A stretch of 64,000 nt of DNA from a virus. Location: IMG/VR virus record IMGVR_UViG_3300037189_002988, positions 1 through 64,000 of that record; one strand, written 5' to 3'. This document shows positions 3,516 to 31,090 of this stretch, piece by piece. The notes under the pieces were generated by a model that did not search any database, was not told the DNA's origin, and saw only the letters and a list, made by a program, of their open reading frames with translations. Position 1 is the stretch's first letter, and each line of letters begins with the position of its first letter. The position numbers were made by a program, and so were the translations under genes.

Positions 3516-3860
3516 ATGACCCCAGGGAAATTGAATTTTGTCTGTCCACAAGGAAGCACATTCCGTAGGACATTGACCTATAAAATTGACGAAACACCAG
3601 TAAATCTAACTGGATATTCTGCACGTCTACAAGTAAGAGAAACTCACGACTCAACTGACTATATTGTATATCTAACAAATGGAAATGGCATTACCCTTGG
3701 TGGAAGTGCTGGAACAATTGATATCTTAATAGCAGATTCAACAACAACAAACTTCATCACTGGGGACCACGTTTACGATCTAGAAGTAGAATCAGTAAGT
3801 GGTATTACAGATCGTTTAATCGAAGGTAGATTTAATGTCACCCCAGAGGTGACTCGTTAA
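3516..3860 (+). CDS. Baseplate/tail-fibre attachment protein (BppU-like beta-sandwich)
   Basis: QGSTF...PVNLTGYSARLQVR...YDLEV...EGRFNVTPEVT; paralog of 23928..24278. Confidence 0.65.
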   Translation: MTPGKLNFVCPQGSTFRRTLTYKIDETPVNLTGYSARLQVRETHDSTDYIVYLTNGNGITLGGSAGTIDILIADSTTTNFITGDHVYDLEVESVSGITDRLIEGRFNVTPEVTR

Positions 3861-4204
3861 TGGCAGAAGTAACTGTATCAGTTGTTGAAAGTCCAGTAAC
3901 AGTTATCTCTGCAGAACAAAATGTAGATGTATCAGTAAACGAACAAACAGTTGTAATCAGTCTTGGAACCTCTGGTCCACAAGGCCCAGCAGGAACAGTT
4001 GATTATGGCGAGTTAGGATATGTTCATACACAAACAACAGCAGCAACAGTATGGACTGTCAATCACGGATTAGGGTTTATACCTAATGTAACAGTAGTAG
4101 ATTCAGCAGGAACAGTTATTGAGGGGTCATATAACTATCCTAATGAAAATACTATAGTACTAACCTTTGCTGGAGCATTTTCAGGAAAGGCTTATTTTTC
4201 ATAA
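3860..4204 (+). CDS. Tail-fibre connector protein
   Basis: Short collagen-like GPQGPAG; C-terminal WTVNHGLG domain; translationally coupled. Confidence 0.55.
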   Translation: MAEVTVSVVESPVTVISAEQNVDVSVNEQTVVISLGTSGPQGPAGTVDYGELGYVHTQTTAATVWTVNHGLGFIPNVTVVDSAGTVIEGSYNYPNENTIVLTFAGAFSGKAYFS

Positions 4205-4222
4205 AAAGGGCAGGTGAAATAA

Positions 4223-5641
4223 ATGAGTAGAAAATTTTTAACGAACTTAGATCTTAATACCAATCAATTACTGAATGGTGTTATTCAAAATCTTGGAACA
4301 GATCCAGAAACTGGAAAAGCAGGTCAAGTTTATTTTAATACCTCAAATCAAAAATTAAAATTCTACAATGGCTCTGCTTCAGCATGGCAATTCGTAGGTG
4401 CTTCTAACGAAGAAATTGAAGATTTAATTGCACAATTAATTGATGCAGGAACTGGTATTTCTGTAAACTATAATGACGAAACAAGTAGTTTAGTTATTAC
4501 TAACACTGGTGTAACAGCCCTTGTTGGTACTGCAAACGAAATTGACGTATCTGCATCAACAGGTTCTGTAACACTAAGTTTACCATCAACAATTAATGCT
4601 AACACTACAGGAAACGCAGCAACTGCTTCTGCATTAGAAACAGCAAGAACAATCTCCCTAGGTGGAGATTTAAGTGGTAGTGCTAGTTTTAAAGGTGATC
4701 AAAATATCACAATTAATGCAACAGTTCAACCAAACTCTGTAGCACTAGGAACTGATACAACAGGTGACTATGTTGCATCTGCATCAGCAGGAACTGGTAT
4801 TAGTATTAGCGGAAGTGGCGAAGGTGCTGCTTTAACAATTACTAACACTGGCGTAACAAGTCTTTCTGGAACAAACAATGAAATTACTGTATCTGCATCA
4901 GCAGGTGCTGTACAAATTGGTTTGCCAGATAACGTAACAGTCGCTGGTGATTTAGTTGTAGACGGAAACTTAACAGTATCAGGTAGCACAACATACTTAA
5001 ATACAGCAACACTAACTGTAGAAGACAACATTGTTCTTCTTAACAGTAATGCCACAGGAACTCCTGTTGCAGATGCTGGTATTGAAGTAGAACGTGGAGA
5101 CGGACCTAATTCATCTTTTTATTGGGATGAATCAGAAGGTAAGTGGACTTCAAGTAACGGTGTAACAAATACTGCCGTATCGCTAGAAGGACACGGACAC
5201 TCTTCAATTAACATTAGTGACTTTCAAGAGGCCGTAGAAGATGTAGTTGGAGCAATGGCAACAGATTCTGGAACCATTGACTTTGCTTACACTGATAACG
5301 GAACAGGTGCTGGAACACTTAGTGCTTCCGTAGTACTTGCCGCATCTAATTCATACTTGTCAAGAGCAGCAGGATTAGCAGTAGATAAGTCAGCATTAGA
5401 AACAGCACTCGTAACAGATGGCTTCACAAAGAAGGCTTCTGCTAACGTTGGAAACGGTTCATCACTTTCATTTGCAATTACTCATAATCTAAACAGCAGA
5501 GATGTTGTTGTAAACGTTTATGATAATTCTTCTTTTGACACAGTAGAAACTGATGTTGTTAGAACAGACGCAAATACAGTAACTGTATCATTTGCAACAG
5601 CACCAACAAACAACGCATACCGCGTAGTTATCGTTGGATAG
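4223..5641 (+). CDS. Tail-fibre shaft protein
   Basis: S/T/G/N-rich beta repeats (ITNTGVT x2), VEDNIVLLN...AGIEVERG motif, C-terminal ITHNLN domain. Confidence 0.65.
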   Translation: MSRKFLTNLDLNTNQLLNGVIQNLGTDPETGKAGQVYFNTSNQKLKFYNGSASAWQFVGASNEEIEDLIAQLIDAGTGISVNYNDETSSLVITNTGVTALVGTANEIDVSASTGSVTLSLPSTINANTTGNAATASALETARTISLGGDLSGSASFKGDQNITINATVQPNSVALGTDTTGDYVASASAGTGISISGSGEGAALTITNTGVTSLSGTNNEITVSASAGAVQIGLPDNVTVAGDLVVDGNLTVSGSTTYLNTATLTVEDNIVLLNSNATGTPVADAGIEVERGDGPNSSFYWDESEGKWTSSNGVTNTAVSLEGHGHSSINISDFQEAVEDVVGAMATDSGTIDFAYTDNGTGAGTLSASVVLAASNSYLSRAAGLAVDKSALETALVTDGFTKKASANVGNGSSLSFAITHNLNSRDVVVNVYDNSSFDTVETDVVRTDANTVTVSFATAPTNNAYRVVIVG

Positions 5642-5654
5642 TATAAAATATATT

Positions 5655-5682
5655 GAGGGGGTAGTGAAACACCTACCCTCTC
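5655..5682 (+). other. Intergenic stem-loop (possible attenuator/processing site)
   Basis: gagggggtag...ctaccctctc stem with a GAAA-containing loop; no clear U-tract. Confidence 0.4.
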
Positions 5683-5697
5683 TAACTAAGGATTAAA

Positions 5698-8600
5698 ATG
5701 GCAAAAAGGTTTTTAACACCTACAGGTTTAGTGAGTTTAGCCTCAGATCCAGCAACTGGGTCAGAGGGTAATCTGTACTTTAATAATACCTCTGATGTCA
5801 TTAAAATATATAGAAATGGTGCTTGGGAAAACTTAGTACATACAAGTGAAGAAATACAAGATGCAGCATCAGGTCTTTTAGACCATAGTAATCATGTAAA
5901 CATAGAAGCAACATATGACGACAATAATAATCAAATAATTTTAGAAGCAGATTTATCATCAGTAGGAGCAACAGGATACTATGGATCTTTTTACCATAGT
6001 TCTTCTGCAATAATAAGTGCGTCTGCAACAACACAAGAAGTAGTAATTCCAATTAATACAACAGCAGAAGCAAATGGTGTATCAATTCAAAATAATATTT
6101 CAGGAAAACCAACAAGAATAAAATTTGCAAATGCTGGTGTTTACAATATTCAATTTTCAGTACAATTAGCAAATAGTAATAATACAATTCATAATGCTAC
6201 TATCTGGCTTAAAAAGAATGGAACTAATGTTCCTTCATCAAGTGGTCAAGTAACTGTACCAGAAAAACATGGAGGTGTTAATGGTCAAATAATTCAAGCA
6301 TGGAATTATGTAATGAGTTTAGCAGCAAATGATTTTATTGAATTTTATTTTCAAGTAGAAGATATAGGTATATTTATTGAAACAATTCCTGTTGGAACAA
6401 CACCAACAACTCCAGAAAGTCCAGCAATTATTGTTACAGCACAACAAATTACAAATACACTTGCTCCAGGATTTGGCGGTAGTGGAAGTTCATTCTATCT
6501 AAATGATCTATTAGATGTATCTATTATTAGTCCAGAGAATCATCAATTAGTAGCATTTAATCAAGAAACAGGATTATGGAAGAATTTACACCCCTCAGAA
6601 ATTAACTTAGCAACATTAACAAATTTAAACTCAGCAAGCACATCACTTCTTGCATCAGCATCAACACTTTATATTCCAAAGACTGATCAACAGTCAATAA
6701 TTAACACAGCATCAGCAGCAGCAGTAAACTATGTTGTTGATTCAGCACCAGGTGCACTAGATACTCTAAATGAATTAGCAGCAGCATTAAACGATGATGC
6801 AAACTTTGCTTCTACCGTTATAGGAACAATAGCATCATCATCTGCAGCAGCAGTATCATCAGCAGTTTCTTCAGCAAGTGCAAATACTGTATCTCAAATT
6901 AATGCTTTAACTACATCTGATATTGAAGAGGGTAGCAGACTATACTTTACAAATCAAAGATCTTTAACTACAGCATCAACTGCTTTAGTACATAGCAATC
7001 ATACAAATATTACTGCTACATACAACTCAGCAAGTAATCAAATTATATTAACAGGAAATGCTGGAGGTGGTGGAGCAGGTGGTGATGGTGCCTCTGTTAT
7101 ATATTCAACAGAACAACCAGATACAAGCCAACTCTCTATTGGTGATATATGGGTAGATAGTAACGCTTCTGTGGGGTATAGTGGAAGTTCTACTCCTTTT
7201 GTAAATCAACTTACATATTGGTTAGAAGATGATAATGGAAATCTATTACCAGATGCAGATAATGTTTACTCAGTAGGATCAAGTGCTTTTAGAGTAAAAG
7301 ACTTATATCTTGGTGCTTCATCTCTTTATATGCAAAATCCATCAAGTCCTAATCAAAATATTGCATTAACTATGGACTTAAATGGAAATATGCAAATTGG
7401 AAATCATAAGATTATTACTACTGGAAATGCTCAATCAAATCTAGACTTATCATCATATGCAACAAAACTTTATGCAAATTCAGCAAGTGCTTATGCTTTA
7501 AATTCAGCAAGTGCTTATACACAGTCACAACTTGACAGTGCATCATCAAATCTTACATCTTCAATAAATACAAAACTTTCTATACAATCAGCATCAACAA
7601 CATATGCTACAAAGGCAGAATTATCAAATGTTAATGTTGACTTATCAGCATACTTAAGTAAGGCTGAGGCTAGTGCAATGTATCAAAAACGTATTCCATA
7701 TTCATCTGCATCTCCTACCCCTACACAATTGGGTGATATGTGGGTTGATAATACAGGAACTGCTGCAATTTTAAATATTTGGGATGGAAATGAATGGAAG
7801 TATGAATCATATGTACCAACTCCAAATGTTCTGTCAATTCTTCCAGTTAGTTCAACATCAGCAGGAACTATTATAGATATTACTGGAGCAAACTTTGTAT
7901 CTGGTGCAACAGTACAGTTTATTGGAACAAATGGTACACCATATAATGCAACAGTTGTTCAAAGAGTTTCAGCAACATTACTAAAAGCAACCACACCAGC
8001 ACTTGCACAAGCATATGAACCATATAGTATTAAAGTTATAAACCCAAGTGGAAACTATGGAATATTGGCTGGAGCATTAGATGCTGGATCTACACCAGCA
8101 TGGATTACACCACAAGGATCTATAGGAACTCTTTACGATATTGAAAGAGGAATTAAAACATTTAATGTTAGTGCTAGTGATGCAGATTTACAAAGTCTTC
8201 AATATTCAATTGTTGGAGGAGCACTACCTGCTGGAATGATTTTAAGTGCATCTGCTGGAGTAATATCTGGATTAGCGTCTCCAGTTGTAAATGACACAAC
8301 ATATACATTTGATGTAAGAGCAAGTGATGGAATAAACTCATCAACCAGAACATTTAGTTTATTAATGAAAGCACCAGTAACAATAACATATACATCAGTT
8401 GGAAGCAACACATTTACTGCACCTACTGCATTAACTTATGTTAAAATTCTTCTAGTTGGTGGAGGTGGAGGTGCTGGAAGCAGTCGAGGAAATGGACCTG
8501 GCGGTAACGGTGGTGGTGGTGGTATTGTTTATAATCCATTAGTTGCTGTAACTGCTGGACAAACTTATTCATTAAACGTTGGTGGTGCAGGATCAGGTTC

Positions 8601-8931
8601 TGGATGTAATAATCAATCTGGATGTAGCGGTGGAGTAACAACAGGATTTGGTGGAACAGCAGGTGGTGGAGGTGGTGGTGTATCAGAACATAACGGAAAT
8701 TGTAACAGTGGTTGGGCTGGAACATCTTCAATGGTTGGAGCAACAGCACTTTATGAAGGTGGTTCTGGAGGATGTTCATTTGGTGCAGGTGGTGGAGGAA
8801 CACAATACTCAAACTCTGAATTTGGATCACCTACAACATTTGGTGGACAGTGTGCATCACAATATTATGGTGGTGGAGGATGTCACTCAGGTGGCGGCGG
8901 AGCACAGGGTATTATTAGGGTTAAATACTAA
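5698..8931 (+). CDS. Large tail-fibre protein with IPT/Ig-like domains and a C-terminal glycine-rich domain
   Basis: APGALDTLNELAAAL fibre motif, ITGANFVSGATV (IPT/TIG-like), GALPAGMIL...GVISG (putative Ig), C-terminal Gly-rich domain. Confidence 0.7.
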   Translation: MAKRFLTPTGLVSLASDPATGSEGNLYFNNTSDVIKIYRNGAWENLVHTSEEIQDAASGLLDHSNHVNIEATYDDNNNQIILEADLSSVGATGYYGSFYHSSSAIISASATTQEVVIPINTTAEANGVSIQNNISGKPTRIKFANAGVYNIQFSVQLANSNNTIHNATIWLKKNGTNVPSSSGQVTVPEKHGGVNGQIIQAWNYVMSLAANDFIEFYFQVEDIGIFIETIPVGTTPTTPESPAIIVTAQQITNTLAPGFGGSGSSFYLNDLLDVSIISPENHQLVAFNQETGLWKNLHPSEINLATLTNLNSASTSLLASASTLYIPKTDQQSIINTASAAAVNYVVDSAPGALDTLNELAAALNDDANFASTVIGTIASSSAAAVSSAVSSASANTVSQINALTTSDIEEGSRLYFTNQRSLTTASTALVHSNHTNITATYNSASNQIILTGNAGGGGAGGDGASVIYSTEQPDTSQLSIGDIWVDSNASVGYSGSSTPFVNQLTYWLEDDNGNLLPDADNVYSVGSSAFRVKDLYLGASSLYMQNPSSPNQNIALTMDLNGNMQIGNHKIITTGNAQSNLDLSSYATKLYANSASAYALNSASAYTQSQLDSASSNLTSSINTKLSIQSASTTYATKAELSNVNVDLSAYLSKAEASAMYQKRIPYSSASPTPTQLGDMWVDNTGTAAILNIWDGNEWKYESYVPTPNVLSILPVSSTSAGTIIDITGANFVSGATVQFIGTNGTPYNATVVQRVSATLLKATTPALAQAYEPYSIKVINPSGNYGILAGALDAGSTPAWITPQGSIGTLYDIERGIKTFNVSASDADLQSLQYSIVGGALPAGMILSASAGVISGLASPVVNDTTYTFDVRASDGINSSTRTFSLLMKAPVTITYTSVGSNTFTAPTALTYVKILLVGGGGGAGSSRGNGPGGNGGGGGIVYNPLVAVTAGQTYSLNVGGAGSGSGCNNQSGCSGGVTTGFGGTAGGGGGGVSEHNGNCNSGWAGTSSMVGATALYEGGSGGCSFGAGGGGTQYSNSEFGSPTTFGGQCASQYYGGGGCHSGGGGAQGIIRVKY

Positions 8932-8948: not shown

Positions 8949-9644
8949 ATGTCTTCAGCACAAATACTAGATATTACTAGACCAGCATATGTTTGGAATG
9001 GCACTAACTGGGTGCCAATTACTCAAACAAGAAACGATGCTGTTCTTTATCAACCAACTCAACCAGACGTTAGTGCTTTAGATGTAGGAACAGTCTGGGT
9101 AGATAGTAATGATTATCTAGGTACTGGAATAGTAAATCCTAATGGATTTGGATACATAACAACAACTCCAGCAACACAACAAATATTAGCAGACTCAGAT
9201 TTTGATAATATTAATCTACAGGCTGGAAATAGCATAACAATTAATGCTGCTAGTGCTACAAATACTATTACTATATCTTCTACAATTACAAACTTAAATA
9301 GTCTTACAGATAGCACTATTGCTTCCCCTTCAAATAATCAATTATTAGCATATAATTCTTCTTCCGCTCAATGGACTAATCAGAATATAATGAATATTCT
9401 TTCTACCGCCAATGCTTCAGCAACATACTTAACAGTAACAGCAGCATCTGCTACATATGAACCAAATATTACCTATAATTCTTCATCCCCTGCATATCAA
9501 ATTGCAACTGGACAACTTTGGATTGATACAACAGATGCCGAGGCACCAATATTGAAAGTGTATAATGGAAGTACCTGGATTGAAATGTCAGGTGCTGGTG
9601 GCGGTGGGGATGTCTTTGACACACTGCTGCTTATGGGAGTATAA
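8949..9644 (+). CDS. Tail-fibre arm protein
   Basis: N-terminal RPAYVWNG..W motif, G.LW.D...LKVYNG..W domain, C-terminal GGGG-D.F..LLMGV. Confidence 0.55.
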   Translation: MSSAQILDITRPAYVWNGTNWVPITQTRNDAVLYQPTQPDVSALDVGTVWVDSNDYLGTGIVNPNGFGYITTTPATQQILADSDFDNINLQAGNSITINAASATNTITISSTITNLNSLTDSTIASPSNNQLLAYNSSSAQWTNQNIMNILSTANASATYLTVTAASATYEPNITYNSSSPAYQIATGQLWIDTTDAEAPILKVYNGSTWIEMSGAGGGGDVFDTLLLMGV

Positions 9645-10214
9645 ATGGCACAACAAGTAAAAACTTTAAAGATTTTGGGTCAATCACTTTTAACCACAGA
9701 GTCAAGAGCCATTTCATTTAGAAATTTAACAAGTAACTTAGTTACCTTAACAACAGCAACAGCACATAATATTATTGAAGGAAACTATGTAACAGTTACA
9801 GGTATTGATGCAACATTTAATGGTAATCAGAATGTTTCTACAGTTCCAAATAATACATCTTTTACATACCCAGTAACTGCAAGTAACGTTGTAACAGCAG
9901 CAACTGTTGGTGCTAGTGTTTCATACGTTCCAGAAACAATAGTATACACATGTCCAGCCTCTCCAAGCACTCAAACACTAATATCAACAATAACAGTAAC
10001 AAACTGCTCAGACGTTGATGGAACATTCTTTTTAGCAGTAGTTAAAACTGGAGAAACTTTAAGTAAGAAACATTATATAGCCTGGGGACCAGGTATATTA
10101 GCAAGAGATCAAATTTCACTAACTTTAGGTTTAACAATTACATCTGGAGATAAGATAGTAGCATTCGGTGCTCCTAATATTGCTATATCTCTATTTGGAG
10201 GAGAAATAGTCTAA
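9645..10214 (+). CDS. Adapter beta-sandwich protein with inserted small beta domain
   Basis: Paralog of 20440 and 29478 (YT.P...QT.IS.I.V.N...HY...LG.T....D). Confidence 0.55.
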   Translation: MAQQVKTLKILGQSLLTTESRAISFRNLTSNLVTLTTATAHNIIEGNYVTVTGIDATFNGNQNVSTVPNNTSFTYPVTASNVVTAATVGASVSYVPETIVYTCPASPSTQTLISTITVTNCSDVDGTFFLAVVKTGETLSKKHYIAWGPGILARDQISLTLGLTITSGDKIVAFGAPNIAISLFGGEIV

Positions 10215-18916: not shown

Positions 18917-18954
18917 TAAATTACTACAATGCTATAATTAAAAAGGTGAATTAA

Positions 18955-22718: not shown

Positions 22719-23243
22719 ATGGGTATAACAAGAGAAATGTCAAAGATCTTATCAACAAGTACTGCTATTACCACAGATGCAGAAATATCTGCATATAACT
22801 ATTTATCACAAACATCTGCTAGTACAACATACGCTACAATTTCTAACTTTCCATCAAGTGCCTGGACATCTTTTAATCCTCAATTAGACCAGGGTACAAC
22901 AAATATTAGTAAAACTATCAACTATTGTAAATATATTAAGTTAGGTAAAACTGTTATTGCAAATGGATATATTGCAGTCACTGCAAATGGAACTGCAGGA
23001 GCAAACGTTACTTTAACCCTTCCATTACTAGCAGCAAGTGCTGGTCAGCCAATTGGTAGTTTTATAATTTATGGATCAAGTGGCAACGTAAACTTTGCTG
23101 GAACAGCCTGGGCTTTAACAACAAGCCAAATGGCATTTAGATCAGATGCCTCTAACTTTGAATCATATTTTGGAAATCAACCAAATAGGGCTATAGTAAA
23201 CATAGACTCAATTGCTTTTTCAATTGCCTATGAAGTGGCTTAA
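22719..23243 (+). CDS. Tail-fibre tip protein
   Basis: WTSFNP...KY.KLGKTV...TLP...YEVA head domain; N-terminus resembles that of 21652. Confidence 0.55.
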   Translation: MGITREMSKILSTSTAITTDAEISAYNYLSQTSASTTYATISNFPSSAWTSFNPQLDQGTTNISKTINYCKYIKLGKTVIANGYIAVTANGTAGANVTLTLPLLAASAGQPIGSFIIYGSSGNVNFAGTAWALTTSQMAFRSDASNFESYFGNQPNRAIVNIDSIAFSIAYEVA

Positions 23244-23273: not shown

Positions 23274-23642
23274 ATGGCACATTTTGCAGAATTAAATGAA
23301 GATAATATTGTTCAAAGAGTAATTGTTGTTAATAATGAAGACTGTCTAGACGCTAATGGCGTTGAGTCAGAAGAAGTTGGTTCAGCATTTTGTCACAATT
23401 TATTAGGTGGCACCTGGAAACAAACATCATATAGTGGTAGTTTTAGAAAAAACTATGCTGGTAATGGATATAAATATGATGCTGAAAAAGATGCTTTTAT
23501 TTCACCAAAACCATTTAGTAAGTGGATTCTTAATGAAGATACTTGTCAGTGGGAACCACCAGTAGCATATCCAGATGATGATAAGTTTTATGTATGGAAT
23601 GATAACAAAGGAGTATGGGAAGAGTCTGATCTTTCTAACTAA
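23274..23642 (+). CDS. Putative tail-fibre chaperone
   Basis: MAHFAEL...WKQTSY...RKNYAG.GY.YD...DAFI.PKPF..W family; paralog of 30553. Confidence 0.6.
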   Translation: MAHFAELNEDNIVQRVIVVNNEDCLDANGVESEEVGSAFCHNLLGGTWKQTSYSGSFRKNYAGNGYKYDAEKDAFISPKPFSKWILNEDTCQWEPPVAYPDDDKFYVWNDNKGVWEESDLSN

Positions 23643-23899
23643 TGCCTAACATATCAGCAAATTCTAGACCAGCACAAGTTTGGAATGGAACCGAATGGGT
23701 TCCAATTGCTGGCGTTCAACCAAACTATGAATTTGGTGCAGCAGATCCAACACATGCTGCAAAAGAAGGAACCGTCTACTTTAAATTAAGCGGGGAATTA
23801 AATGAAGTAGTAGGTTTATATGTAGTTATTAATGGAACTTGGATAGAATTTAAGTCAGTATTTAATTTACAGAATGTAACATGGGGCGACCTTGCTTGA
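23642..23899 (+). CDS. Small virion protein
   Basis: N-terminal RPAQVWNG.EW motif, C-terminal TWGDL. Confidence 0.5.
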   Translation: MPNISANSRPAQVWNGTEWVPIAGVQPNYEFGAADPTHAAKEGTVYFKLSGELNEVVGLYVVINGTWIEFKSVFNLQNVTWGDLA

Positions 23900-23927
23900 C
23901 AATGATATAATAAAAAGGGTGATATAA

Positions 23928-24278
23928 ATGGCATTTCCAGCAACATATAATTTCAATTACTACCGTGGTGATAGTTACGAGTTCGTTATTTATCCAAAGA
24001 ATGCTAATGGAACTGCATTTGATTTATCATCTTACAATTCTAATTTATTTACAGTAGCAACAGATAGAGGTACTGGTGCAACTCTAGTAGGAACTGGTAC
24101 AGTAACAAAGTCTGGCTCTACAGCACTAATATGTAAAATAACTCCAACACTTGGAGATTTAATGTCTTTAGCAACATATGTTTATGATGTTCAAATTAAT
24201 AATACAACAGCGTCAACTAAGTACACACTACTAACAGGAAACATCAGCGTAACACAAGACGTATCTGGCAGGGTATAA
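23928..24278 (+). CDS. BppU-like attachment protein
   Basis: YRGDSYEF...FDLS.Y...YVYDVQI...LLTG.I.V..DV; paralog of 3516. Confidence 0.6.
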   Translation: MAFPATYNFNYYRGDSYEFVIYPKNANGTAFDLSSYNSNLFTVATDRGTGATLVGTGTVTKSGSTALICKITPTLGDLMSLATYVYDVQINNTTASTKYTLLTGNISVTQDVSGRV

Positions 24279-24854
24279 ATGGCAATTAACTCAGTAGTTC
24301 AAACTGATTCAATCACAGTGTTTGGTCCACCAGCAGCAATTGATGTTGCTTTAGACATTGGCCCATCTGGAGAAAGAGGAAGTTTAATATATTCTGGATC
24401 TGGTGATCCAAACATTAATACAGGTGCATTTGTTAACGAAAGTCCAAAAGTAAGCGACCTATATGTTAGAACAGACGCTGGTGGAGACTATGGTGTTGTA
24501 TACCAATATAATACAGTTCCTGGCGGTAATGAATGGCAATCAGTATTAAAGTTTCAGCCAATATTATTTAGTAAAATAGAAACATTAAATTTTGCTTCAG
24601 GTAGTGCAAGTGTTTCTATACCACTAAGTGAAATTTATCAAGATGCACCAGCATCATTATTGGCAGAAAATATTTCAATTCAACTTACACCACAACACTC
24701 TGAGGCTATCGCACACTCAATTTCAGCAAAGGCTTTAAGTGTATCTGGAACAAGGGCACTACTATTTACAGTCAAGGCAAAACAAATAGCGGGTAGTATA
24801 ACTGATTTATCAGGCAATATAGCCTTTAACATATCTATTACTATCGTGTTATAA
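24279..24854 (+). CDS. Virion structural protein
   Basis: GPSGERGS...GSGDP motif; coupled to the upstream gene. Confidence 0.5.
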   Translation: MAINSVVQTDSITVFGPPAAIDVALDIGPSGERGSLIYSGSGDPNINTGAFVNESPKVSDLYVRTDAGGDYGVVYQYNTVPGGNEWQSVLKFQPILFSKIETLNFASGSASVSIPLSEIYQDAPASLLAENISIQLTPQHSEAIAHSISAKALSVSGTRALLFTVKAKQIAGSITDLSGNIAFNISITIVL

Positions 24855-24873: not shown

Positions 24874-25806
24874 ATGGCAGGTCAATTTTTAAGTGATGCA
24901 TCTGGATACGGTGCTACAGAATTTGATACAAAGATTCCCTCACTAAACGATCAAGCAAATATCGTAGAGGCTTTTAAACTTTATCACTATGGACTAGATA
25001 ACTATACAGGTGCAGAAGCACCAGCAGCAGACAGCATCCACGCTCATTTATCAGACTTTAACACAAGACTAGAATTACAAGAAAGCACACCATCTGGCGG
25101 TGGAGTTGTTCAAACAGCAATTCCTCATTTACTAGTTAGAGCAGATAATACAACAACTATTCTTCCAGAAGGATACATCTGGGTTGATCAAGATGGAACA
25201 GTTCCAAGTGTTACAGCCGCTGGAGTTGTATCATACTTAAATGATGAACCATCACCAGCAACACATGGTCAAGTTTGGATTGACAAAGACTACAATATTG
25301 CACCAGTAAATATTTCAGCATATGCACCTACTGCAAATCCTACTTTTACAGGAACAGTAATTGCTCCAACACTAAACTCAACAACTTTAACAGCAACAAC
25401 AGCAAACTTAACAAACTTAACAGTTACTGGAGCAGCAAACATTGCTGAAGTTACAGAAACTGTAAACACCTTGTCATTTGTATCTGGCTCAGTAACTGGA
25501 AATTATAATGATAGTGCAATTTTTTACACATCATCAGGAACAATTGCAAACTTTGGAGTAATTCTTACAAACATTCCAACAACAAATAATAGAGTAACAA
25601 CAATGTCATTTATGATAACTCAAGCATCAACTGGATATATTCCAAATGCAATAAGTGTTAACGGATCAAATCAAACAATTAGATGGGTTGGTGGAACCGC
25701 TCCAACTCCAACAAGTTCTGTAGGGAAAATTGATATCTTCATATTTTCACTTTTAAGAATATCCGATTCTTGGATAGTTCTTGGAAGTTCTAATTTAAAT
25801 ATTTAA
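24874..25806 (+). CDS. Tail-fibre arm/connector protein
   Basis: Two G..WVD/WID motifs, APTANPTFTG motif, C-terminal domain shared with 17587. Confidence 0.55.
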   Translation: MAGQFLSDASGYGATEFDTKIPSLNDQANIVEAFKLYHYGLDNYTGAEAPAADSIHAHLSDFNTRLELQESTPSGGGVVQTAIPHLLVRADNTTTILPEGYIWVDQDGTVPSVTAAGVVSYLNDEPSPATHGQVWIDKDYNIAPVNISAYAPTANPTFTGTVIAPTLNSTTLTATTANLTNLTVTGAANIAEVTETVNTLSFVSGSVTGNYNDSAIFYTSSGTIANFGVILTNIPTTNNRVTTMSFMITQASTGYIPNAISVNGSNQTIRWVGGTAPTPTSSVGKIDIFIFSLLRISDSWIVLGSSNLNI

Positions 25807-25815: not shown

Positions 25816-26595
25816 ATGCCAATATTATCATCATTCAGTGGCTCTAGGGGCGTAACAGGAAGACAACAACAAAGTCCATTTACCGCAACTGGTGGAACAA
25901 TGACAGAAGCCACTATTAGTGGAACAATATATAAAGTTCATACATTTACAACTAGCGGAATTTTTCAAGTTTTAAGCGGTAAATCAGATATTAGTTATTT
26001 AGTAATTGCAGGTGGTGGATCAGGTGGTGGTCCAAATACTAACTTTGGTGGATCAGGTGGTGGTGGAGGTGCTGGAGGTTTACTACAAGGATCAGCATCT
26101 AATATAACACCTGCTTCATATACAGTTACAGTTGGAAATGGTGGAACATCAGTACCAAGTTCTGGAGGTATATCATCTATTTCTGGAATTGTAAGTACAG
26201 TTGGTGGAGGTCATGGTGGTAGAGGAGACGGTGTTTATAGCGGAACTACTGGTGGATCTGGTGGAGGTGCTGGACGAGGAACTGGTGCAGGAAGTGGTAC
26301 TTCTGGACAAGGACATGCTGGAGGTGCTGCTCAATATTTAAGTTGGGGTGCTGGTTCAGGTGGAGGTGCTGGAGGTGCTGGTATTCAAGGTGGAGGAGAT
26401 CTTTCTTCTCAACCAGGTGGAGCAAGTGTTACTATAAACTTTAATGGAACTTCAACAGAATATGCTAGAGGTGGTGCTGGAGGATCAAGAGACAGTGGAG
26501 GTACTACATACCTTGGTGAAAATACTGGTGCAGGTGGCGGTGGCGGTGCTGCTGGAAGATCTGGTATTGTTATGATAAGATATGTTAAACCATAA
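25816..26595 (+). CDS. Glycine-rich domain protein
   Basis: YKVHTFTTSG...GRSGIVMIRY. Confidence 0.7.
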   Translation: MPILSSFSGSRGVTGRQQQSPFTATGGTMTEATISGTIYKVHTFTTSGIFQVLSGKSDISYLVIAGGGSGGGPNTNFGGSGGGGGAGGLLQGSASNITPASYTVTVGNGGTSVPSSGGISSISGIVSTVGGGHGGRGDGVYSGTTGGSGGGAGRGTGAGSGTSGQGHAGGAAQYLSWGAGSGGGAGGAGIQGGGDLSSQPGGASVTINFNGTSTEYARGGAGGSRDSGGTTYLGENTGAGGGGGAAGRSGIVMIRYVKP

Positions 26596-26603: not shown

Positions 26604-26852
26604 ATGAATTATAAATTTAAACCACTAAGCCCTATTGCAGAAAATAGTGGGGTTGTAAAAAAGGTAGATCTTGGAACTCATTATTCAACCTTTATAAGTC
26701 CATTTGATTTTGAAGTAGATGAATCTAATGATATGTATGTATGTGGAAAAGAATATAGCATTAATGAATCAAAAGCCGAAGAACTATTCTTATCTGGATA
26801 TGGACATTTTTTAGACCCAGCATTTATTCAAGATATTGAAGAAGAAGTTTAA
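26604..26852 (+). CDS. Hypothetical protein
   Basis: AAGGA SD; follows the Gly-rich gene. Confidence 0.5.
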   Translation: MNYKFKPLSPIAENSGVVKKVDLGTHYSTFISPFDFEVDESNDMYVCGKEYSINESKAEELFLSGYGHFLDPAFIQDIEEEV

Positions 26853-28399
26853 AACAATAATCCTTTTTTAGGAAACCAAATAGCATCTAATGCTGTAGAT
26901 CTTAATACATTAATAGCCTCTTCTGGAGTTTCAACTAATGGCATTCCTGCTGTATTAAAACTAGTATTTAATAATATTCCTATACCAGTATTTTTCTTAA
27001 ACTCTTTTAATAGTTCGTAGATATGTCCTGAGTTAACTGTTTGAATTCTAGAAGTATTATCAACATGAACAACAGATGGAATCATAGAAGATACCCCATC
27101 TTTACATTTATAAGCAACAGTCATATATTCATTCTTAGTATCACTATTTGTATGAAAGTATTCTTGAAAATCTTCTTCTAGCATTACTGCACCAAATGGT
27201 CTATACCATTCTCTATTCTTTATTTTGTTTACAATATCTTTACCATCTTTGTTTCTTGGGTCAAATAGTATTGATCTATTTCCTAATGCTCTAGGTCCAG
27301 CCTCGGATTTACCATTAAAGACACCAATAGTTTTTTGATCTAGTAAAATTTTAACAATATCAGCATATAAGGCGTTTACTGTATTAATATCTAGGTCATA
27401 GTCAAATCCTTGAAAAAAGGTATCTTTTAGGGGATATATAGACTTGTCTAAGGTCATATCCCTATAAACATTCATTGCAGCACCAATACTATTTCCACTA
27501 TCGTCAGCAATTGGTTCAAAATAAAAATTAATACCCTCACAATTTTCAAGGTAGTAATTATTTGCTATTACATTTAAACCATACCCACCAGTAATACATA
27601 CATTGTTAATACCAGTTTCTTTGGTAAATTTTTTTATAAGTTTTAGTACCTGCTCTTGTGTTTGCTTTTGGACTTGATGTGCATAATCGGCATAAGGTTG
27701 ATAGTTTTCTTTTGTAACACCGTCTACTCTAATGTTTTTATTCTTCTTTAGTATAGATACGCTTGTATCAAATCTATCCATAAGTAAACCTTCAAAAAGA
27801 TGATTTTTAACTTTGCCATCTTCATAAAAGAAATCATCTGACTTGGATGAGTTTCCGTATGACGACAGTCCCATAGTTTTTCCATTCTCTAAAGGATGTT
27901 GACCAATAAGGGTAGTGGCTGATTCATATACCTTTACAATTCCTAAACCATTATTATCCCAATATCTTTTATGCAGCGTCTTAAATACGCTAGGATATTC
28001 TGCTACTAAAACAGTTTCACATTCATGACCTTTATTATTAACATAAGATCCATTTCTATCAACTATGATTACAAGACTTTTTTCAAACCCACTATTATAA
28101 AATGCCAAAGAAGCGTGTTGCTGATGGTGCATATGAGAAAGACTTAATATATCTTTTGAATACATTTTTGAAAGGTATGTAGATAGATAACTATCATAGT
28201 TATTATAGAATGGATTAGCAACTACTATATGGTCTATAGAATTCTTATATCTATCTTTTACTATATCTAAAGATTTCCAGGGATACATGTCCCTTTTTAC
28301 ACCAGTAAATCTTTCTTCTTTATAAAATTCTTTTACTTTGCCATTTTCTACAAGTGCAACTGAACTATCGTGCATAGAACTTACACCTAAAATTATCAT
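26849..28399 (-). CDS. O-carbamoyltransferase (NodU/CmcH/TobZ family)
   Basis: HDSS, EERF, HHxxHA, GKTMGL, GGYGLN, EAGPRALGNRS, REWYRPF and LLNTSFN motifs. Confidence 0.9.
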   Translation of the reverse strand: MIILGVSSMHDSSVALVENGKVKEFYKEERFTGVKRDMYPWKSLDIVKDRYKNSIDHIVVANPFYNNYDSYLSTYLSKMYSKDILSLSHMHHQQHASLAFYNSGFEKSLVIIVDRNGSYVNNKGHECETVLVAEYPSVFKTLHKRYWDNNGLGIVKVYESATTLIGQHPLENGKTMGLSSYGNSSKSDDFFYEDGKVKNHLFEGLLMDRFDTSVSILKKNKNIRVDGVTKENYQPYADYAHQVQKQTQEQVLKLIKKFTKETGINNVCITGGYGLNVIANNYYLENCEGINFYFEPIADDSGNSIGAAMNVYRDMTLDKSIYPLKDTFFQGFDYDLDINTVNALYADIVKILLDQKTIGVFNGKSEAGPRALGNRSILFDPRNKDGKDIVNKIKNREWYRPFGAVMLEEDFQEYFHTNSDTKNEYMTVAYKCKDGVSSMIPSVVHVDNTSRIQTVNSGHIYELLKEFKKNTGIGILLNTSFNTAGMPLVETPEEAINVLRSTALDAIWFPKKGLLF

Positions 28400-28832: not shown

Positions 28833-29477
28833 ATGCCTTTAAGATTAGTCACAAATAAAGCACTTACAGACAATGTAGCAACACTCACTACATCAGCAAG
28901 TCATAGCCTATCAGCAGGCACATACATTACAATTAGTGGTGTAGATTCAACATTTAATGGATCCTATACAGTAACAGGAACTCCAACAACAACAAGTTTT
29001 ACTTATGCAAAGACAGCAACAAATGTTCCTTCAGCAGTTGTGTCACCATCAGGTAGTGCAATTTATGCAACTATAGATGATACAGGAAGACCAGCATATA
29101 TGTACGATGCTGGAACAGATACTTGGTTTGCAGTTGCAGGAAAAGTAGATACTGGAAGAAATTATACTTGGACAGGAACACATACATTTTCTGCACCAGT
29201 TTCAGCATCAGACACATTTACTGTCAATGCTCAACTTAGATCAACTTCAGCAAGTGTTTCTGGAGCCTTAACAGTCTCTGGAGATGTTGTTGCTAAAAAA
29301 GGTATAAATGCTTTTGCTAATACAACTGCAAGAGACGCAGCAATTCCTTCTCCAACTGTTGGTACAATAGTATATATCACTGCATTAAACCAACAACTAG
29401 TGTGGAATGGCACAGCCTGGATAGCAATTGAAGGCGGCAGTGGCATGGAAGACATATTTTTAATGATGGGGGCATAA
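28833..29477 (+). CDS. Tail-fibre arm protein
   Basis: N-terminal small beta domain, RPAYMYD...W motif, C-terminal WNGTAW...EDIFLMMGA. Confidence 0.55.
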   Translation: MPLRLVTNKALTDNVATLTTSASHSLSAGTYITISGVDSTFNGSYTVTGTPTTTSFTYAKTATNVPSAVVSPSGSAIYATIDDTGRPAYMYDAGTDTWFAVAGKVDTGRNYTWTGTHTFSAPVSASDTFTVNAQLRSTSASVSGALTVSGDVVAKKGINAFANTTARDAAIPSPTVGTIVYITALNQQLVWNGTAWIAIEGGSGMEDIFLMMGA

Positions 29478-29807
29478 ATGGCTAGAAGTTATAAAGTCCT
29501 AGGACAAAATAATCCTGCTGCAACAACAGCAACAACTTTGTACACAGTACCAGGAGCAACACAATCTGTACTATCAACAATATCAGTTTGTAATTTTGCA
29601 AATACTGCTGCTACATATCGTATTGCAATTAGACCTGCTGGCGAAACATTGGCAAACAAACACTATGTTGCATACGATTCATCACTACCAGCAAACGATA
29701 CTGCAGTATTAACATTAGGATTAACAATGAATACAACAGATATTCTTACAGTATACGCATCAACAGCATCTGTATCATTTGGAGTATTTGGTTCGGAGAT
29801 TTCCTAA
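29478..29807 (+). CDS. Adapter beta-sandwich protein
   Basis: YKVLGQ.NP.ATT.TTLYTVP...KHY.AYD...FGSEIS. Confidence 0.6.
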   Translation: MARSYKVLGQNNPAATTATTLYTVPGATQSVLSTISVCNFANTAATYRIAIRPAGETLANKHYVAYDSSLPANDTAVLTLGLTMNTTDILTVYASTASVSFGVFGSEIS

Positions 29808-30553
29808 TGGCAATATCAACAGTTGCAAATACATTACTAAGTAATAATGCAAAATCTAATAGAAGTAATAAATTTGCAAAAGTAACCGCTAGTGGAGGTA
29901 CTGAAACTACTGGTGGTGGATATAAGGTTCATACATTTACTAGTAGTTCTACTTTTAACGTAACAGTTGGTGGACCAGTGGAAGTTTTTGCAATTGGTGG
30001 AGGTGCAGGTGGTGGACACGGACAGTGTGGTACAGGTGGTGGAGCAGGCGGTGTTCAGTTTGTTGCAAATCAACAGTTTATATCAAACTCCTCTTACACA
30101 GTAACAATTGGAAATTTTGGTGGTACAAATAGTGGTGGTGGAAACACAACAATTGTTGGAACAAATGTTTCTATCACGGCAGGTGGTGGAGGTATTCCTA
30201 CAACTGGAACTCCAGATAACTTTACAAACTCTGGTTCACAAGGACACGCTGGTGGTGCAGGTGCTGGTGGAAATACAGCAAGTTTAAGTGGTGGTCCTGG
30301 AAGACTTTATTTAGGAAATCATTATGGTGGTGGCGGTGGAGCAGGTGGAAGAGATGAAGGTGGATGTGAAGGTTTTGCTAGAGCAGGTGGTACTGGTGGC
30401 GGAGGTACAGGAATTAATGGTGATGGAACTGGTGGAAGTGCTAGTGGTCACGGATCAGGTGGCGGCGGTGGCGGTAGAGTAAATCATCAAAATAGAAATA
30501 CTCCAGGTGGAAATGGATCTTCTGGAATTGTAATTTTGAGGTATTTAATATAA
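29807..30553 (+). CDS. Glycine-rich domain protein
   Basis: YKVHTFTSS...GSSGIVILRYLI. Confidence 0.7.
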   Translation: MAISTVANTLLSNNAKSNRSNKFAKVTASGGTETTGGGYKVHTFTSSSTFNVTVGGPVEVFAIGGGAGGGHGQCGTGGGAGGVQFVANQQFISNSSYTVTIGNFGGTNSGGGNTTIVGTNVSITAGGGGIPTTGTPDNFTNSGSQGHAGGAGAGGNTASLSGGPGRLYLGNHYGGGGGAGGRDEGGCEGFARAGGTGGGGTGINGDGTGGSASGHGSGGGGGGRVNHQNRNTPGGNGSSGIVILRYLI

Positions 30554-30870
30554 TGGCTAACTTTGCAGTAATTGATTCAGAAAATATGGTTGTAAATATC
30601 GTAGCATCAGACTATGATTTTATAGAAATTTTAAAACAACAAAACCCAGATCTTAAATATATTGAATATCATGATAATAATCATGCAACTCCTGGGTACC
30701 CATATAATCCAGAAAAAGAAAAGTTTTTATTACCACCATCATATTATTCATGGGTATTAAATGAAGAAAAATGGGAATACGAAGCACCAATTCCAATGCC
30801 AAATGATGGTAAATACTACAGTTGGGACGAAACACAAGTTACTTGGGTTGAAGTAACCCCAGTGGTATAA
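30553..30870 (+). CDS. Putative tail-fibre chaperone
   Basis: MANFAVID...SWVLNE...EAP.PMP.DGK.Y.WDE; paralog of 23274. Confidence 0.6.
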   Translation: MANFAVIDSENMVVNIVASDYDFIEILKQQNPDLKYIEYHDNNHATPGYPYNPEKEKFLLPPSYYSWVLNEEKWEYEAPIPMPNDGKYYSWDETQVTWVEVTPVV

Positions 30871-30886
30871 TTTAAAAGGAGAAACA

Positions 30887-31090
30887 ATGGCAACAATAAA
30901 TGATAGCATAGGGAAATTAGCAAGAGTTTACGACTCTGCAACTGACACTTGGGTTCCTCTAATTGGTGCACCAGCACCACACACACATGATTTATCCAGT
31001 TTAGGATTAGTAATTATAACTAACCCACAAAATGGTCAAGTATTAAAATATAGTTCAAGTGCAAGTGCTTGGACTAATCAAAATCCATAA
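30887..31090 (+). CDS. Small virion protein
   Basis: ARVYDSATDTWVP motif plus NPQNGQVLKY...W; AGGAG SD. Confidence 0.55.
   Translation: MATINDSIGKLARVYDSATDTWVPLIGAPAPHTHDLSSLGLVIITNPQNGQVLKYSSSASAWTNQNP

What the first reader, a model, noticed from the sequence alone, without database searches (positions are those of the whole stretch)
3516..31090. Plug-and-socket gene grammar suggesting a branched, multi-adhesin tail apparatus
Seen: the C-terminal domain of one gene predicts the identity or N-terminus of the next. (a) H.L-type end domains (3860, 4223) are each followed by a gene starting M.(RK/KR)FLT (4223, 5698). (b) Ends such as GGGG..FDTLLLMGV, GGGG..FHPFFGAY and GG..DIFLMMGA (8949, 18955, 28833) are each followed by the same adapter family (9645, 20440, 29478) and then Gly-rich genes. 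(c) The IRW.GGT.PTPT domain (17587, 24874) is each time followed by a Gly-rich gene starting MP..S..SG..G..G. (d) Three modules end with a chaperone-like gene (13266, 23274, 30553). Inference: ~27 kb encodes a modular tree of fibres joined by short peptide-domain pairs and displaying 10 or more different tips.
Basis: partly seen in the sequence, partly recalled or inferred. Interest (0 to 1): 0.8.

Follow-up and report, generated by a model that had tools for sequence, protein, structure and literature searches.

The report
Modular jointed tail-fibre gene array
A marine phage carries a 27-kb block of tail-fibre genes built from repeated shaft, connector and head sets; the same junction motifs recur in hundreds of unrelated aquatic phages, which suggests an uncharacterised way of exchanging host-recognition heads.

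Summary
All four adjacency rules are present at the stated coordinates. Each also holds outside this genome, so chance or local duplication does not explain them.

- **Rule b:** in 80 unrelated IMG/VR loci, 44 of 49 distinct genes upstream of the ~110-aa connector end in a hydrophobic ...ΦΦΦMG[AG] tail, against 58 of 1179 control ORFs. The shaft bodies are unrelated.
- **Rules a, c and d:** each recurs in other contigs. Rule c also holds in cyanomyovirus S-PM2, and the b+d cassette in Pontimonas phage phiPsal1.
- **Connector:** predicted with high confidence as a small jelly-roll. Natural proteins fuse it to different heads.
- **Gly-rich genes:** they fold like the receptor-binding tip of cyanophage Pam3 fibre gp24.
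- **Head swapping:** close relatives exchange heads exactly at the junctions.

Three things are not shown. No docking of the tail peptide was predicted. Nothing supports a branched tree over several linear jointed fibres. There is no virion evidence for this uncultured phage. The terminal Gly codon also doubles as the next gene's ribosome-binding site.

The backbone resembles large Streptomyces siphoviruses. This scan already noted the same cassette on other DNA (follow-up e1-5402611). My verdict is a real, widespread and apparently uncharacterised variant of modular fibre joints, here unusually expanded.

The parts
3516..3860 (+). 114-aa small beta protein, paralogue of 23928; first gene of the array, TGGTATAAT at 3474
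   Evidence: phrog_1084 E 1e-23; weak phrog_3304 'L-shaped tail fiber protein assembly' E 1e-6; promoter-like motif
3860..4204 (+). 114-aa protein with a GPQGPAG stretch and a C-terminal H.L domain
   Evidence: (phrog_30556 and others on residues 53-113)
4223..5641 (+). 472-aa fibre: MSRKFLT leader, shaft, C-terminal H.L domain
   Evidence: 80 related loci share the leader and the terminal position of the domain
5698..8931 (+). 1077-aa fibre: MAKRFLT leader, shaft, Ig/TIG-like part, Gly-rich head fused at residues 899-1068
   Evidence: Pfam PF21722 E 1e-9; in relative G002 the same shaft ends ..AIIAGRMFA and the Gly-rich head is a separate gene
8949..9644 (+). 231-aa shaft: N-terminal RPAYVWNGTNW motif, distal W-hairpin, GGGG linker, tail peptide FDTLLLMGV
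9645..10214 (+). 189-aa connector (jelly-roll family) with a beta-domain inserted after its first strand (KILGQ)
   Evidence: same architecture in P0012 and P0034
10214..11236 (+). Gly-rich head 1 of a tandem triplet (340 aa)
   Evidence: PF21722 E 9e-22
11237..12262 (+). Gly-rich head 2 of the triplet (341 aa, TTG start directly after the stop)
12262..13263 (+). Gly-rich head 3 of the triplet (333 aa)
13266..13664 (+). Tail assembly chaperone family protein (132 aa)
   Evidence: Pfam PF16778 E 7.5e-19, above cut-off
13664..14563 (+). 299-aa shaft with RPAYVWSGSQW N-motif and tail peptide ..IDIMLGG, not followed by a connector
14569..17577 (+). 1002-aa virion structural protein family of cyanomyoviruses; TGATATAAT at 14542
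   Evidence: phrog_5838 E 0; 44-45% identity to S-PM2p175, S-RSM4 and others; N-terminus not detectably connector-like
17587..18156 (+). 189-aa protein ending in the IRW..GGT.PTPT beta domain
   Evidence: homologous domain at the end of S-PM2p177
18164..18916 (+). Gly-rich head with MP leader (250 aa); replaced by an unrelated LamG-like head in relatives G001 and G002
   Evidence: PF21722
18955..20439 (+). 494-aa shaft with SASSTYLTQ repeats, distal W-hairpin, tail peptide FHPFFGAY; TGCTATAAT at 18930
20440..20775 (+). 111-aa connector
20775..21650 (+). Gly-rich head (291 aa); only its N-terminal ~125 aa are conserved in close relatives
21652..22698 (+). 348-aa head, MGRARDIASL leader, carbohydrate-binding-like C-terminus
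   Evidence: phrog_4492 tail fibre E 1e-65; weak CBM_4_9; absent or recombined in G001
22719..23243 (+). 174-aa head with related leader MGITREMSKIL; body swapped in G002
23274..23642 (+). 122-aa module-ending protein, phrog_7759
   Evidence: E 3e-45; found downstream of connectors in 34 of 80 loci and in phiPsal1 gp024
23642..23899 (+). 85-aa mini-shaft with RPAQVWNGTEW N-motif
23928..24278 (+). 116-aa paralogue of 3516; TGATATAAT at 23903
   Evidence: phrog_1084
24279..24854 (+). 191-aa protein, no family
24874..25806 (+). 310-aa shaft ending in the IRW domain
25816..26595 (+). Gly-rich head with MP leader (259 aa)
26604..26852 (+). 82-aa protein, no family
26849..28399 (-). Carbamoyltransferase on the opposite strand; interrupts the array and is not a fibre part
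   Evidence: phrog_1601 E 4e-125
28833..29477 (+). 214-aa shaft: N-terminal beta-domain (as in 9645), W-hairpin, tail peptide DIFLMMGA
29478..29807 (+). 109-aa connector; modelled jelly-roll
   Evidence: AF2 pLDDT above 90 over the domain; fold searches
29807..30553 (+). Gly-rich head (248 aa); modelled
   Evidence: AF2 pTM 0.72; best Foldseek match Pam3 fibre 7ypx_A, E 1.7e-5
30553..30870 (+). 105-aa phrog_7759 protein ending the module
30887..31090 (+). 67-aa remnant of a shaft; relative L088 has a 185-aa version ending in an IRW domain plus a further Gly-rich head

Best explanation
Window 3516-31090 is a late-gene array encoding about five or six tail fibres, each assembled end to end from separately encoded segments. 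Gene order follows assembly order: shaft, joint, head, helper. Three joint types recur.

1. **Tail-connector-head joint.** The shaft ends in a W-hairpin, a Gly linker and a 6-8-residue hydrophobic tail (ΦΦΦMG[AG]). Next comes a highly conserved ~110-aa jelly-roll connector. Then comes a head whose first residues are M-[AS]-[IV]-x-[SR]-[LF].
2. **IRW joint.** A C-terminal 'IRW..GGT.PTPT' beta domain is followed by a head starting MP.
3. **H.L joint.** A C-terminal H.L domain gene is followed by a fibre starting M.(R/K)(K/R)FLT.

Most heads are TNF-like/Gly-rich domains of the kind that forms the receptor-binding tip of cyanophage Pam3 gp24. Others are lectin-like. Small genes at module ends (PF16778, phrog_7759) probably help folding.

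Shown: the families, their conserved order across unrelated phages, head swapping at the joints, connector-head fusions, and the predicted folds.

Inferred: that the terminal peptides and domains are the physical contacts, that the parts are trimeric, that they sit on the tail, and that the heads bind host receptors.
For: - Paralogy map.
- Connector family: at least 451 relatives in IMG/VR.
- Upstream genes: 44 of 49 distinct ones end in the hydrophobic tail, against 58 of 1179 controls.
- Tail conservation: the last 8 aa are 50% pairwise identical, against 10-13% in the preceding blocks. The shafts are 65-732 aa with unrelated bodies, and the hydrophobic positions use many synonymous codons.
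- Spacing: the tail persists with 0-47-nt spacers.
- Head leader: present in 44 of 54 heads, against 92 of 648 controls.
- Rule (a): 25 of 53, against 8 of 499.
- Rule (c): holds in L045, L054, L055, L082, L088 and S-PM2 p177 to p176.
- Rule (d): phrog_7759 lies downstream of the connector in 34 of 80 loci.
- Minimal cassette in a cultured phage: phiPsal1 has it directly after the tape measure and the next tail gene.
- Connector model: pLDDT above 90, jelly-roll.
- Gly-rich head model: best match Pam3 fibre 7ypx_A at E 1.7e-5, then ALK/LTK Gly-rich domains and Bxb1 tail-tip chains. Pam3 structure and function from PMC9608196.
- Natural connector-head fusions: P0008, P0013, P0015-18, P0016, P0020, P0066.
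- Head replacement exactly at joints in relatives with 85-90% nucleotide identity. The Gly-rich head is fused in the window and separate in G002.
Against: - AF2 of a natural read-through fusion (shaft end plus connector) left the tail peptide at pLDDT around 50-70, with no docking. No multimer modelling was available.
- Tail-ended genes also occur in chains without a connector, or before unrelated genes. Here 13664 is followed by the 1002-aa protein instead.
- The Gly codon of the tail is GGA in 34 of 44 cases and overlaps the next gene's Shine-Dalgarno site, so part of the motif is a translational signal.
- The connector fold is generic, with Z 8-9.7 to many jelly-rolls.
- No virion proteomics exists for this uncultured phage. 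'Virion structural protein' labels on relatives are annotations I could not trace to data.
- phrog_7759 has no known function.
Confidence: 0.6

Rival explanations
1. One reading: all modules join into one branched tree, a single organelle displaying ten or more different heads at once.
For: There are more heads than connectors. Three Gly-rich genes follow 9645, and three heads follow 20440. Connectors can themselves carry inserted domains (9645; P0012, P0044). Branched receptor-binding complexes are known in other phages (my knowledge: CBA120, G7C, K1-5, phiK64-1).
Against: Five or six genes share the same N-terminal RPAYVW.G..W motif (8949, 13664, 18955, 23642, 30887, and internally in 28833). 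That fits parallel fibres using one kind of docking site. Extended -10 motifs precede several module-leading genes, which suggests separate transcription units. No protein with two different sockets was identified. In phiPsal1 the cassette is a single linear fibre.
Confidence: 0.2
2. The connector and phrog_7759 proteins are assembly chaperones that are not part of the virion. In that case the hydrophobic tail is a chaperone-recognition or trimerisation tag rather than a structural joint.
For: Fibre chaperones are usually encoded directly after their client (Pam3 gp25, PMC9608196). No docking was predicted. Tail-ended genes exist without a connector.
Against: In several lineages the connector is the N-terminal domain of head-bearing proteins (RCC1, LamG-like, TIG and others), which a released chaperone would not be. 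It lies between shaft and head rather than after the head. Relatives are annotated as virion structural proteins.
Confidence: 0.12
3. The 'grammar' carries no physical meaning. On this view the adjacency reflects en-bloc duplication of cassettes, and the terminal motifs reflect translational coupling, with a Shine-Dalgarno site embedded in the last codons.
For: All junction stops are TAA with the ATG abutting or overlapping. GGAG-like sequences sit in the last codons. The Gly codon is strongly biased to GGA.
Against: The tail peptide is kept with spacers up to 47 nt, where the ribosome-binding site lies outside the gene. Its hydrophobic residues are conserved through synonymous codon changes. 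It is attached to unrelated shaft bodies in hundreds of phages of three tail types. Heads swap precisely at the joints.
Confidence: 0.05

Closest known systems
Cyanophage Pam3 tail fibre gp24 with chaperone gp25 (PDB 7YPX; PMC9608196)
   Same: Both have a TNF-like beta sandwich bearing a Gly-rich (GGGGxGG) lattice as the distal head. It is the best structural match of the modelled head 29807 (E 1.7e-5, 24% identity, TM 0.51). A helper gene is encoded downstream in both.
   Different: Pam3 has one fibre made of one protein, with a long N-terminal helical bundle that docks to the baseplate. Here the heads have only a short leader and are preceded by separate shafts and connectors. There are eight heads. 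The helpers (PF16778, phrog_7759) were not shown to be related to gp25.
T4/T2/S16 long tail fibre: gp34-gp35-gp36-gp37 plus adhesin gp38 (my knowledge; S16 gp38 as cited in PMC9608196)
   Same: Both have serially joined, separately encoded fibre segments in gene order, a Gly-rich adhesin capping the distal end, and dedicated assembly helpers.
   Different: No sequence similarity was detected. The joints here use a ~110-aa jelly-roll connector and short terminal peptides. The cassette occurs on sipho-, podo- and myovirus genomes.
Adapter-based or branched receptor-binding complexes (K1-5/SP6 adapter, CBA120 TSP1-4, G7C gp63.1/gp66, Klebsiella phiK64-1; my knowledge)
   Same: In both, conserved N-terminal anchor peptides or domains let several different receptor-binding proteins be mounted on one virion, and heads are exchanged by recombination behind the anchor.
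   Different: Those systems use tailspikes and T4 gp10-like or other anchor domains. No family search here returned such a domain. Branching is not demonstrated for this array.
The 'plug-socket-tip' cassette noted earlier in this scan on other genomes (e1-5402611 and others)
   Same: It is the same three-gene set: a shaft ending in a greasy tail, a ~110-aa conserved beta-sandwich, and a swappable tip.
   Different: This window adds two further joint types (IRW domain to MP leader; H.L domain to M.RKFLT). It is an unusually large array and has a backbone like Streptomyces siphoviruses.

Membership tests
Pfam PF21722 Gly_rich_2 / Pam3 gp24-like TNF + Gly-rich receptor-binding head | Significant match to the family profile | tested here: met
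   Tested on 10214 (E 9e-22), 18164 (E 3e-8) and the 5698 C-terminus (E 1e-9), all above the 24.3-bit cut-off. The other five are linked to these by BLASTP.
Pfam PF21722 Gly_rich_2 / Pam3 gp24-like TNF + Gly-rich receptor-binding head | Beta-sandwich core with Gly-rich extended loops, structurally like Pam3 gp24 or the ALK Gly-rich domain | tested here: met
   AF2 model of 29807: pTM 0.72, core pLDDT above 85, Gly loops low. Foldseek top hits are 7ypx_A (E 1.7e-5) and 7yfw_a, then LTK/ALK Gly-rich domains at weak E-values.
Pfam PF21722 Gly_rich_2 / Pam3 gp24-like TNF + Gly-rich receptor-binding head | Long N-terminal alpha-helical bundle docking the fibre to the baseplate (Pam3 gp24) | tested here: not met
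   The 29807 model has no helix. The heads begin with a short leader of about 25-60 aa.
Pfam PF21722 Gly_rich_2 / Pam3 gp24-like TNF + Gly-rich receptor-binding head | Binds a host surface receptor | not testable with these tools
   Inferred from Pam3 and S16 (PMC9608196) and from head swapping in close relatives.
Shaft-tail / jelly-roll connector / head cassette (unpublished as far as I found; seen earlier in this scan) | The gene upstream of the connector ends in a hydrophobic tail ΦΦΦMG[AG] | tested here: met
   Window genes 8949, 18955 and 28833. 44 of 49 distinct upstream genes in other loci, against 58 of 1179 controls.
Shaft-tail / jelly-roll connector / head cassette (unpublished as far as I found; seen earlier in this scan) | ~110-aa connector with YKVLGQ...LYTVP...NxxxxxxYRIAxRP...HY motifs | tested here: met
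   20440 and 29478 align end to end with 46 relatives at 34-70% identity. 9645 has the same domain with an insertion.
Shaft-tail / jelly-roll connector / head cassette (unpublished as far as I found; seen earlier in this scan) | Physical contact between tail, connector and head leader | tested here: inconclusive
   The cis-fusion AF2 model gave no docking. Connector-head fusions in other lineages support connector-head association. No multimer tool was available.
Pfam PF16778 Phage_tail_APC (tail assembly chaperone) | Profile match above the curated cut-off | tested here: met
   13266: 67.8 bits against a 26.6-bit cut-off.
T5-type collar / L-shaped tail fibre attachment protein | Clear homology of 3516 or 23928 to the T5 family | tested here: inconclusive
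   There is only a secondary PHROG hit (phrog_3304, E 1e-6). No solved structure was found by sequence.
Stanwilliamsviridae-like large actinophage siphoviruses (genome backbone) | Homologous portal and shared gene order around the head and tail modules | tested here: met
   The portal is 54% identical to those of Streptomyces phages Moab, Gilson and others. The shared order is glycosyltransferase, RNR, portal, protease, capsid, tape measure, minor tail genes, DnaB. Formal taxonomic membership was not assessed.

The most novel reading that the evidence does not exclude
A near-universal docking code in aquatic phages of all three tail types lets receptor-binding heads be exchanged as plug-in units. 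The code consists of a C-terminal hydrophobic peptide, a jelly-roll connector and an N-terminal head leader, plus the IRW-domain/MP-leader joint. In this phage the code builds a multi-headed, possibly branched adsorption apparatus with ten or more distinct heads on one virion.
Probability: 0.3. Interest if true: 0.8.

Novelty: new variant of a known kind. Interest (0 to 1): 0.62.

Why it matters
If the junction motifs are real docking elements, they would help in three ways.

- **Annotation.** They give a sequence-readable rule for which proteins form one fibre and which part is the exchangeable host-recognition head. This would apply to the large uncultured fraction of marine and freshwater phages, where fibre genes are mostly 'hypothetical'.
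- **Host-range work.** It would aid host-range inference from metagenomes and explain rapid head swapping between close relatives.
- **Engineering.** It offers a compact natural connector for mounting foreign binding domains on laboratory phages.

The cultured phiPsal1 carries the minimal cassette and makes the idea directly testable.

Tried and rejected
- **Stop-codon read-through or recoding at shaft-connector junctions.** All three stops are TAA and in frame with the next ATG. The connector-to-head junctions overlap out of frame, and the rest of the window reads normally in table 11. I dropped this idea.
- **AF2 of a read-through fusion (28833 C-terminus + Gly + 29478, alignment A2).** The connector folds well, but the tail peptide is not docked.
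- **Sequence searches of the PDB.** Queries with the connector, a Gly-rich head, the 3516/23928 family and 23274 found nothing significant.
- **Profile comparisons.** Connector against the IRW domain, and connector against the N-terminus of 14569: no similarity.
- **tblastn of a Gly-rich head against cultured phages.** No match, probably because of the low-complexity filter.
- **megablast of the region.** No match.
- **ESM Atlas.** It returned only unnamed viral clusters, or nothing.
- **Apparent fusions P0003, P0004, P0005, P0007 and P0011.** They carry Q exactly where relatives have an in-frame stop; L172 has TAG at that position. I treat them as read-through gene calls and did not count them. 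Of 67 distinct IMG/VR relatives of P0011, only one (L250) is fused.
- **Literature searches.** I found no description of the cassette and no primary proteomic evidence for the pelagiphage relatives.
- **First guess of a T4-like cyanomyovirus.** I rejected it because the window has a siphovirus-type module.

Full report
**Context**

The window is the first 64 kb of an 80.7-kb IMG/VR virus contig with about 35% G+C. My first guess was a T4-like cyanophage, because the 1002-aa gene 14569 is 44-45% identical to virion structural proteins of S-PM2, S-RSM4 and relatives. That guess was wrong.

Downstream lie a portal, protease, major capsid protein, Ig-domain tail protein, a 1983-aa tape measure protein, minor tail genes and DnaB. 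The portal is 54% identical to those of about 130-kb Streptomyces siphoviruses. The order glycosyltransferase, RNR, portal, tape measure, DnaB matches Streptomyces phage Moab.

So the fibre array (3516-31090) sits in a large siphovirus backbone. It is all on the + strand except for one antisense carbamoyltransferase. It lies upstream of the head genes, and Moab has no comparable block there.

**Observation**

All-against-all BLASTP gives these families:

- Eight Gly-rich domains, one of them fused to the 1077-aa fibre 5698.
- Three connectors (9645, 20440, 29478).
- Two IRW-domain proteins (17587, 24874).
- Two phrog_7759 proteins (23274, 30553).
- Two phrog_1084 proteins (3516, 23928).
- Shafts sharing an N-terminal RPAYVW.G..W motif (8949, 13664, 18955, 23642, 30887).

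13266 is a Pfam tail assembly chaperone.

Junction genes abut or overlap. All three shaft-connector junction stops are TAA. The last codons of the upstream gene carry the next gene's Shine-Dalgarno sequence.

**Is it more than chance or local duplication?**

Adjacency inside one window can be inherited from en-bloc duplication, so I tested each rule in unrelated DNA.

*Rule (b).*
- The connector has at least 451 relatives in IMG/VR.
- In the 80 best loci, 44 of 49 distinct upstream genes end in a hydrophobic tail of the ...[FLM][LM][LM]MG[AG] type, including the HPFLLAGM and PLLLIGG variants. Only 58 of 1179 other ORFs do, and many of those look like further genuine tails.
- The shafts are 65-732 aa long. 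They are unrelated except for the last 8 residues: 50% pairwise identity there, against 10-13% elsewhere.
- The hydrophobic positions use many synonymous codons.
- The motif persists with spacers up to 47 nt.
- The Gly codon is GGA in 34 of 44 cases, so that position also serves the ribosome-binding site.
- The gene after the connector belongs to the Gly-rich family in 33 of 80 loci. Otherwise it belongs to at least four other head families, including IRW-domain and carbohydrate-binding-like proteins.
- 44 of 54 distinct heads share the leader M-[AS]-[IV]-x-[SR]-[LF], against 92 of 648 controls.

*Rule (a).*
- In 80 loci the H.L domain is at the very C-terminus.
- The gene carrying it starts M.(R/K).FLT in 39 of 53 distinct cases.
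- The next gene does so in 25 of 53, against 8 of 499 controls.

*Rule (c).*
- IRW-domain proteins are followed by MP-leader genes in L045 (Gly-rich head), in L054, L055 and L082 (another head type), and in L088.
- In cyanomyovirus S-PM2, p177 ends in a homologous domain (hhalign probability 90%, E 1.7e-6), and p176 starts MPVSFNS.

*Rule (d).* A phrog_7759 homologue lies downstream of the connector in 34 of 80 loci, often directly after the head.

**What the parts are**

I modelled the connector with AF2, using a 48-row alignment and a natural read-through of the 28833/29478 junction. It is a confident eight-stranded jelly-roll with pLDDT above 90. Its best structural neighbours score Z 8-9.7: nucleoplasmin-like cores, a trimeric phage cement protein, viral turret domains, Ena pilus subunits, and YomS/XepA. 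That is a generic, oligomer-prone fold with no specific functional assignment. The tail peptide stayed at low confidence, so no docking was predicted.

The Gly-rich head 29807 models as a beta-sandwich with Gly-rich loops (pTM 0.72). Its only significant Foldseek match is the cyanophage Pam3 fibre (7ypx_A; E 1.7e-5, 24% identity). Weak matches follow to ALK/LTK Gly-rich domains and to mycobacteriophage Bxb1 tail-tip chains. In Pam3 this TNF-like plus Gly-rich unit is the distal, receptor-recognising end of the fibre and needs a downstream chaperone (PMC9608196).

**Evidence that neighbours work together**

1. *Fusions.* Several lineages have the connector as the N-terminal domain of head-bearing proteins: RCC1 propeller, TIG, LamG-like and other heads. 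Examples are P0008, P0013, P0015-18, P0016, P0020 and P0066. P0017 has been seen on 21 contigs. Others, like window gene 9645, carry a domain inserted after the first connector strand (P0012, P0032, P0034, P0044). I discarded five apparent fusions that have Q where relatives have an in-frame stop.

2. *Head swapping at joints in relatives with 85-90% nucleotide identity.*
   - Homology to G001 and G002 stops at the start of head 18164 and resumes before 18955. The replacement is an unrelated LamG-like protein that keeps the MP leader.
   - Heads 20775, 21652 and 22719 keep only their N-terminal parts.
   - The Gly-rich head is covalently fused to shaft 5698 in the window. In G002 that shaft ends ..AIIAGRMFA and a separate Gly-rich gene follows.
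   - 30887 is the remnant of a shaft-plus-head module that is intact in L088.

3. *A minimal cassette in a cultured phage.* Pontimonas phage phiPsal1 is a 31-kb siphovirus. Directly after the tape measure protein and the next tail gene it has:
   - an 86-aa mini-shaft ending ..NALMLMGG;
   - the connector;
   - a 298-aa Gly-rich ORF that the GenBank record misses;
   - a phrog_7759 gene.

The connector also occurs next to a 1326-aa tail fibre gene in myovirus P-SSM2 and in podovirus HTVC106P.

**Mechanism**

I think the most likely mechanism is several linear fibres whose segments are encoded in assembly order. They would be joined through the conserved terminal elements, carry exchangeable receptor-binding heads, and have helpers at the module ends. 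I put this at about 0.6.

The families, conserved order, swapping, fusions and folds are shown. The physical contacts, trimeric stoichiometry, tail location in this phage and receptor binding are inferred.

A single branched tree is possible, since there are more heads than connectors, but nothing here requires it. Several genes sharing one N-terminal motif, and extended -10 motifs before module-leading genes, fit parallel fibres.

The chaperone-only reading of the connector is weakened by the fusions. The pure translational-coupling reading is largely excluded.

**Comparison and novelty**

Functionally this resembles three known arrangements:
- the serially jointed T4/S16 long tail fibre with its Gly-rich gp38 adhesin;
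- the simple Pam3 gp24/gp25 fibre;
- adapter-based multi-receptor-binding-protein systems.

It is a member of none by sequence, apart from the head domain (PF21722, Pam3-like fold). I found no paper describing the tail/connector/leader cassette.

This scan had already noted the cassette on other genomes, and one follow-up reached the same reading. So the cassette itself is not new to the scan. This window adds:
- two further joint types with cross-phage support;
- the link to Pam3-type heads by fold;
- the phiPsal1 minimal cassette;
- head replacement at joints;
- the Streptomyces-phage-like backbone.

Noticed in passing
L083:7349-8245 (Pontimonas phage phiPsal1, MG835450.1): A 298-aa Gly-rich head ORF with a TTG start lies directly after the connector gp021. 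It is not annotated; the record instead lists two ORFs (gp022, gp023) in other frames with 'no BlastP matches'.
   Followed up: partly
window 31144-64000: The backbone is syntenic with ~130-kb Streptomyces siphoviruses, and the portal is 54% identical. Together with 35% G+C, and the connector also being present in an actinobacterial phage, this hints at a low-GC marine actinobacterial host. No host evidence was obtained.
   Followed up: partly
window 3474, 14542, 18930, 23903, 24847, 28799, 30863, 31111 (+ strand): Extended -10 motifs (TGNTATAAT) lie 20-45 nt upstream of the starts of module-leading genes. The total count in the window (13) is not above shuffles (7.5 ± 2.7), but the placement is regular.
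   Followed up: partly
window 9645-10214; 28833-29080; 14569 residues ~252-320: One ~70-aa beta domain (..VTLTT..H.L..G..VTI.G.D..FNG..) is reused in three places. It is inserted into connector 9645, sits at the N-terminus of shaft 28833, and occurs inside the 1002-aa protein. It is also inserted, in two copies, in connectors P0012 and P0034.
   Followed up: partly
L002:13223-19943 (Synechococcus phage S-PM2 p177, p176): S-PM2p177 ends in a domain homologous to the IRW domain, and p176 begins MPVSFNS. p176 ends in a LamG-like ..NFNALRTRFGL motif, like the replacement head of relative G002.
   Followed up: partly
L012, L054, L055, L061-L063, L074 (IMG/VR loci): There are chains of three consecutive genes (181, 65 and 225 aa). 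Each ends in a hydrophobic tail (..NQLMMMGV, ..FDLFFLVGA, ..SPLLLIGG), and they come before the connector. So the tail is not only a partner of the connector.
   Followed up: no
L172:3319-3330 and proteins P0003, P0004, P0005, P0007, P0011: Several database proteins read an in-frame stop between connector and head, or between shaft and connector, as Q. This is either gene calling under a recoded table or real suppression. I did not resolve which.
   Followed up: partly
window 26849-28399 (-) and 31144-32235 (+): A carbamoyltransferase lies inside the fibre array and a glycosyltransferase at its end. P-SSM2 also has a carbamoyltransferase a few genes after its connector cassette. Fibre or receptor glycan modification is conceivable but untested.
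   Followed up: no
window 14569-14860: The N-terminal ~95 aa of the 1002-aa protein follow a tail-ended shaft (13664). By eye they have a connector-like alternation of strands, but profile comparison shows no similarity (probability 0.6%).
   Followed up: yes
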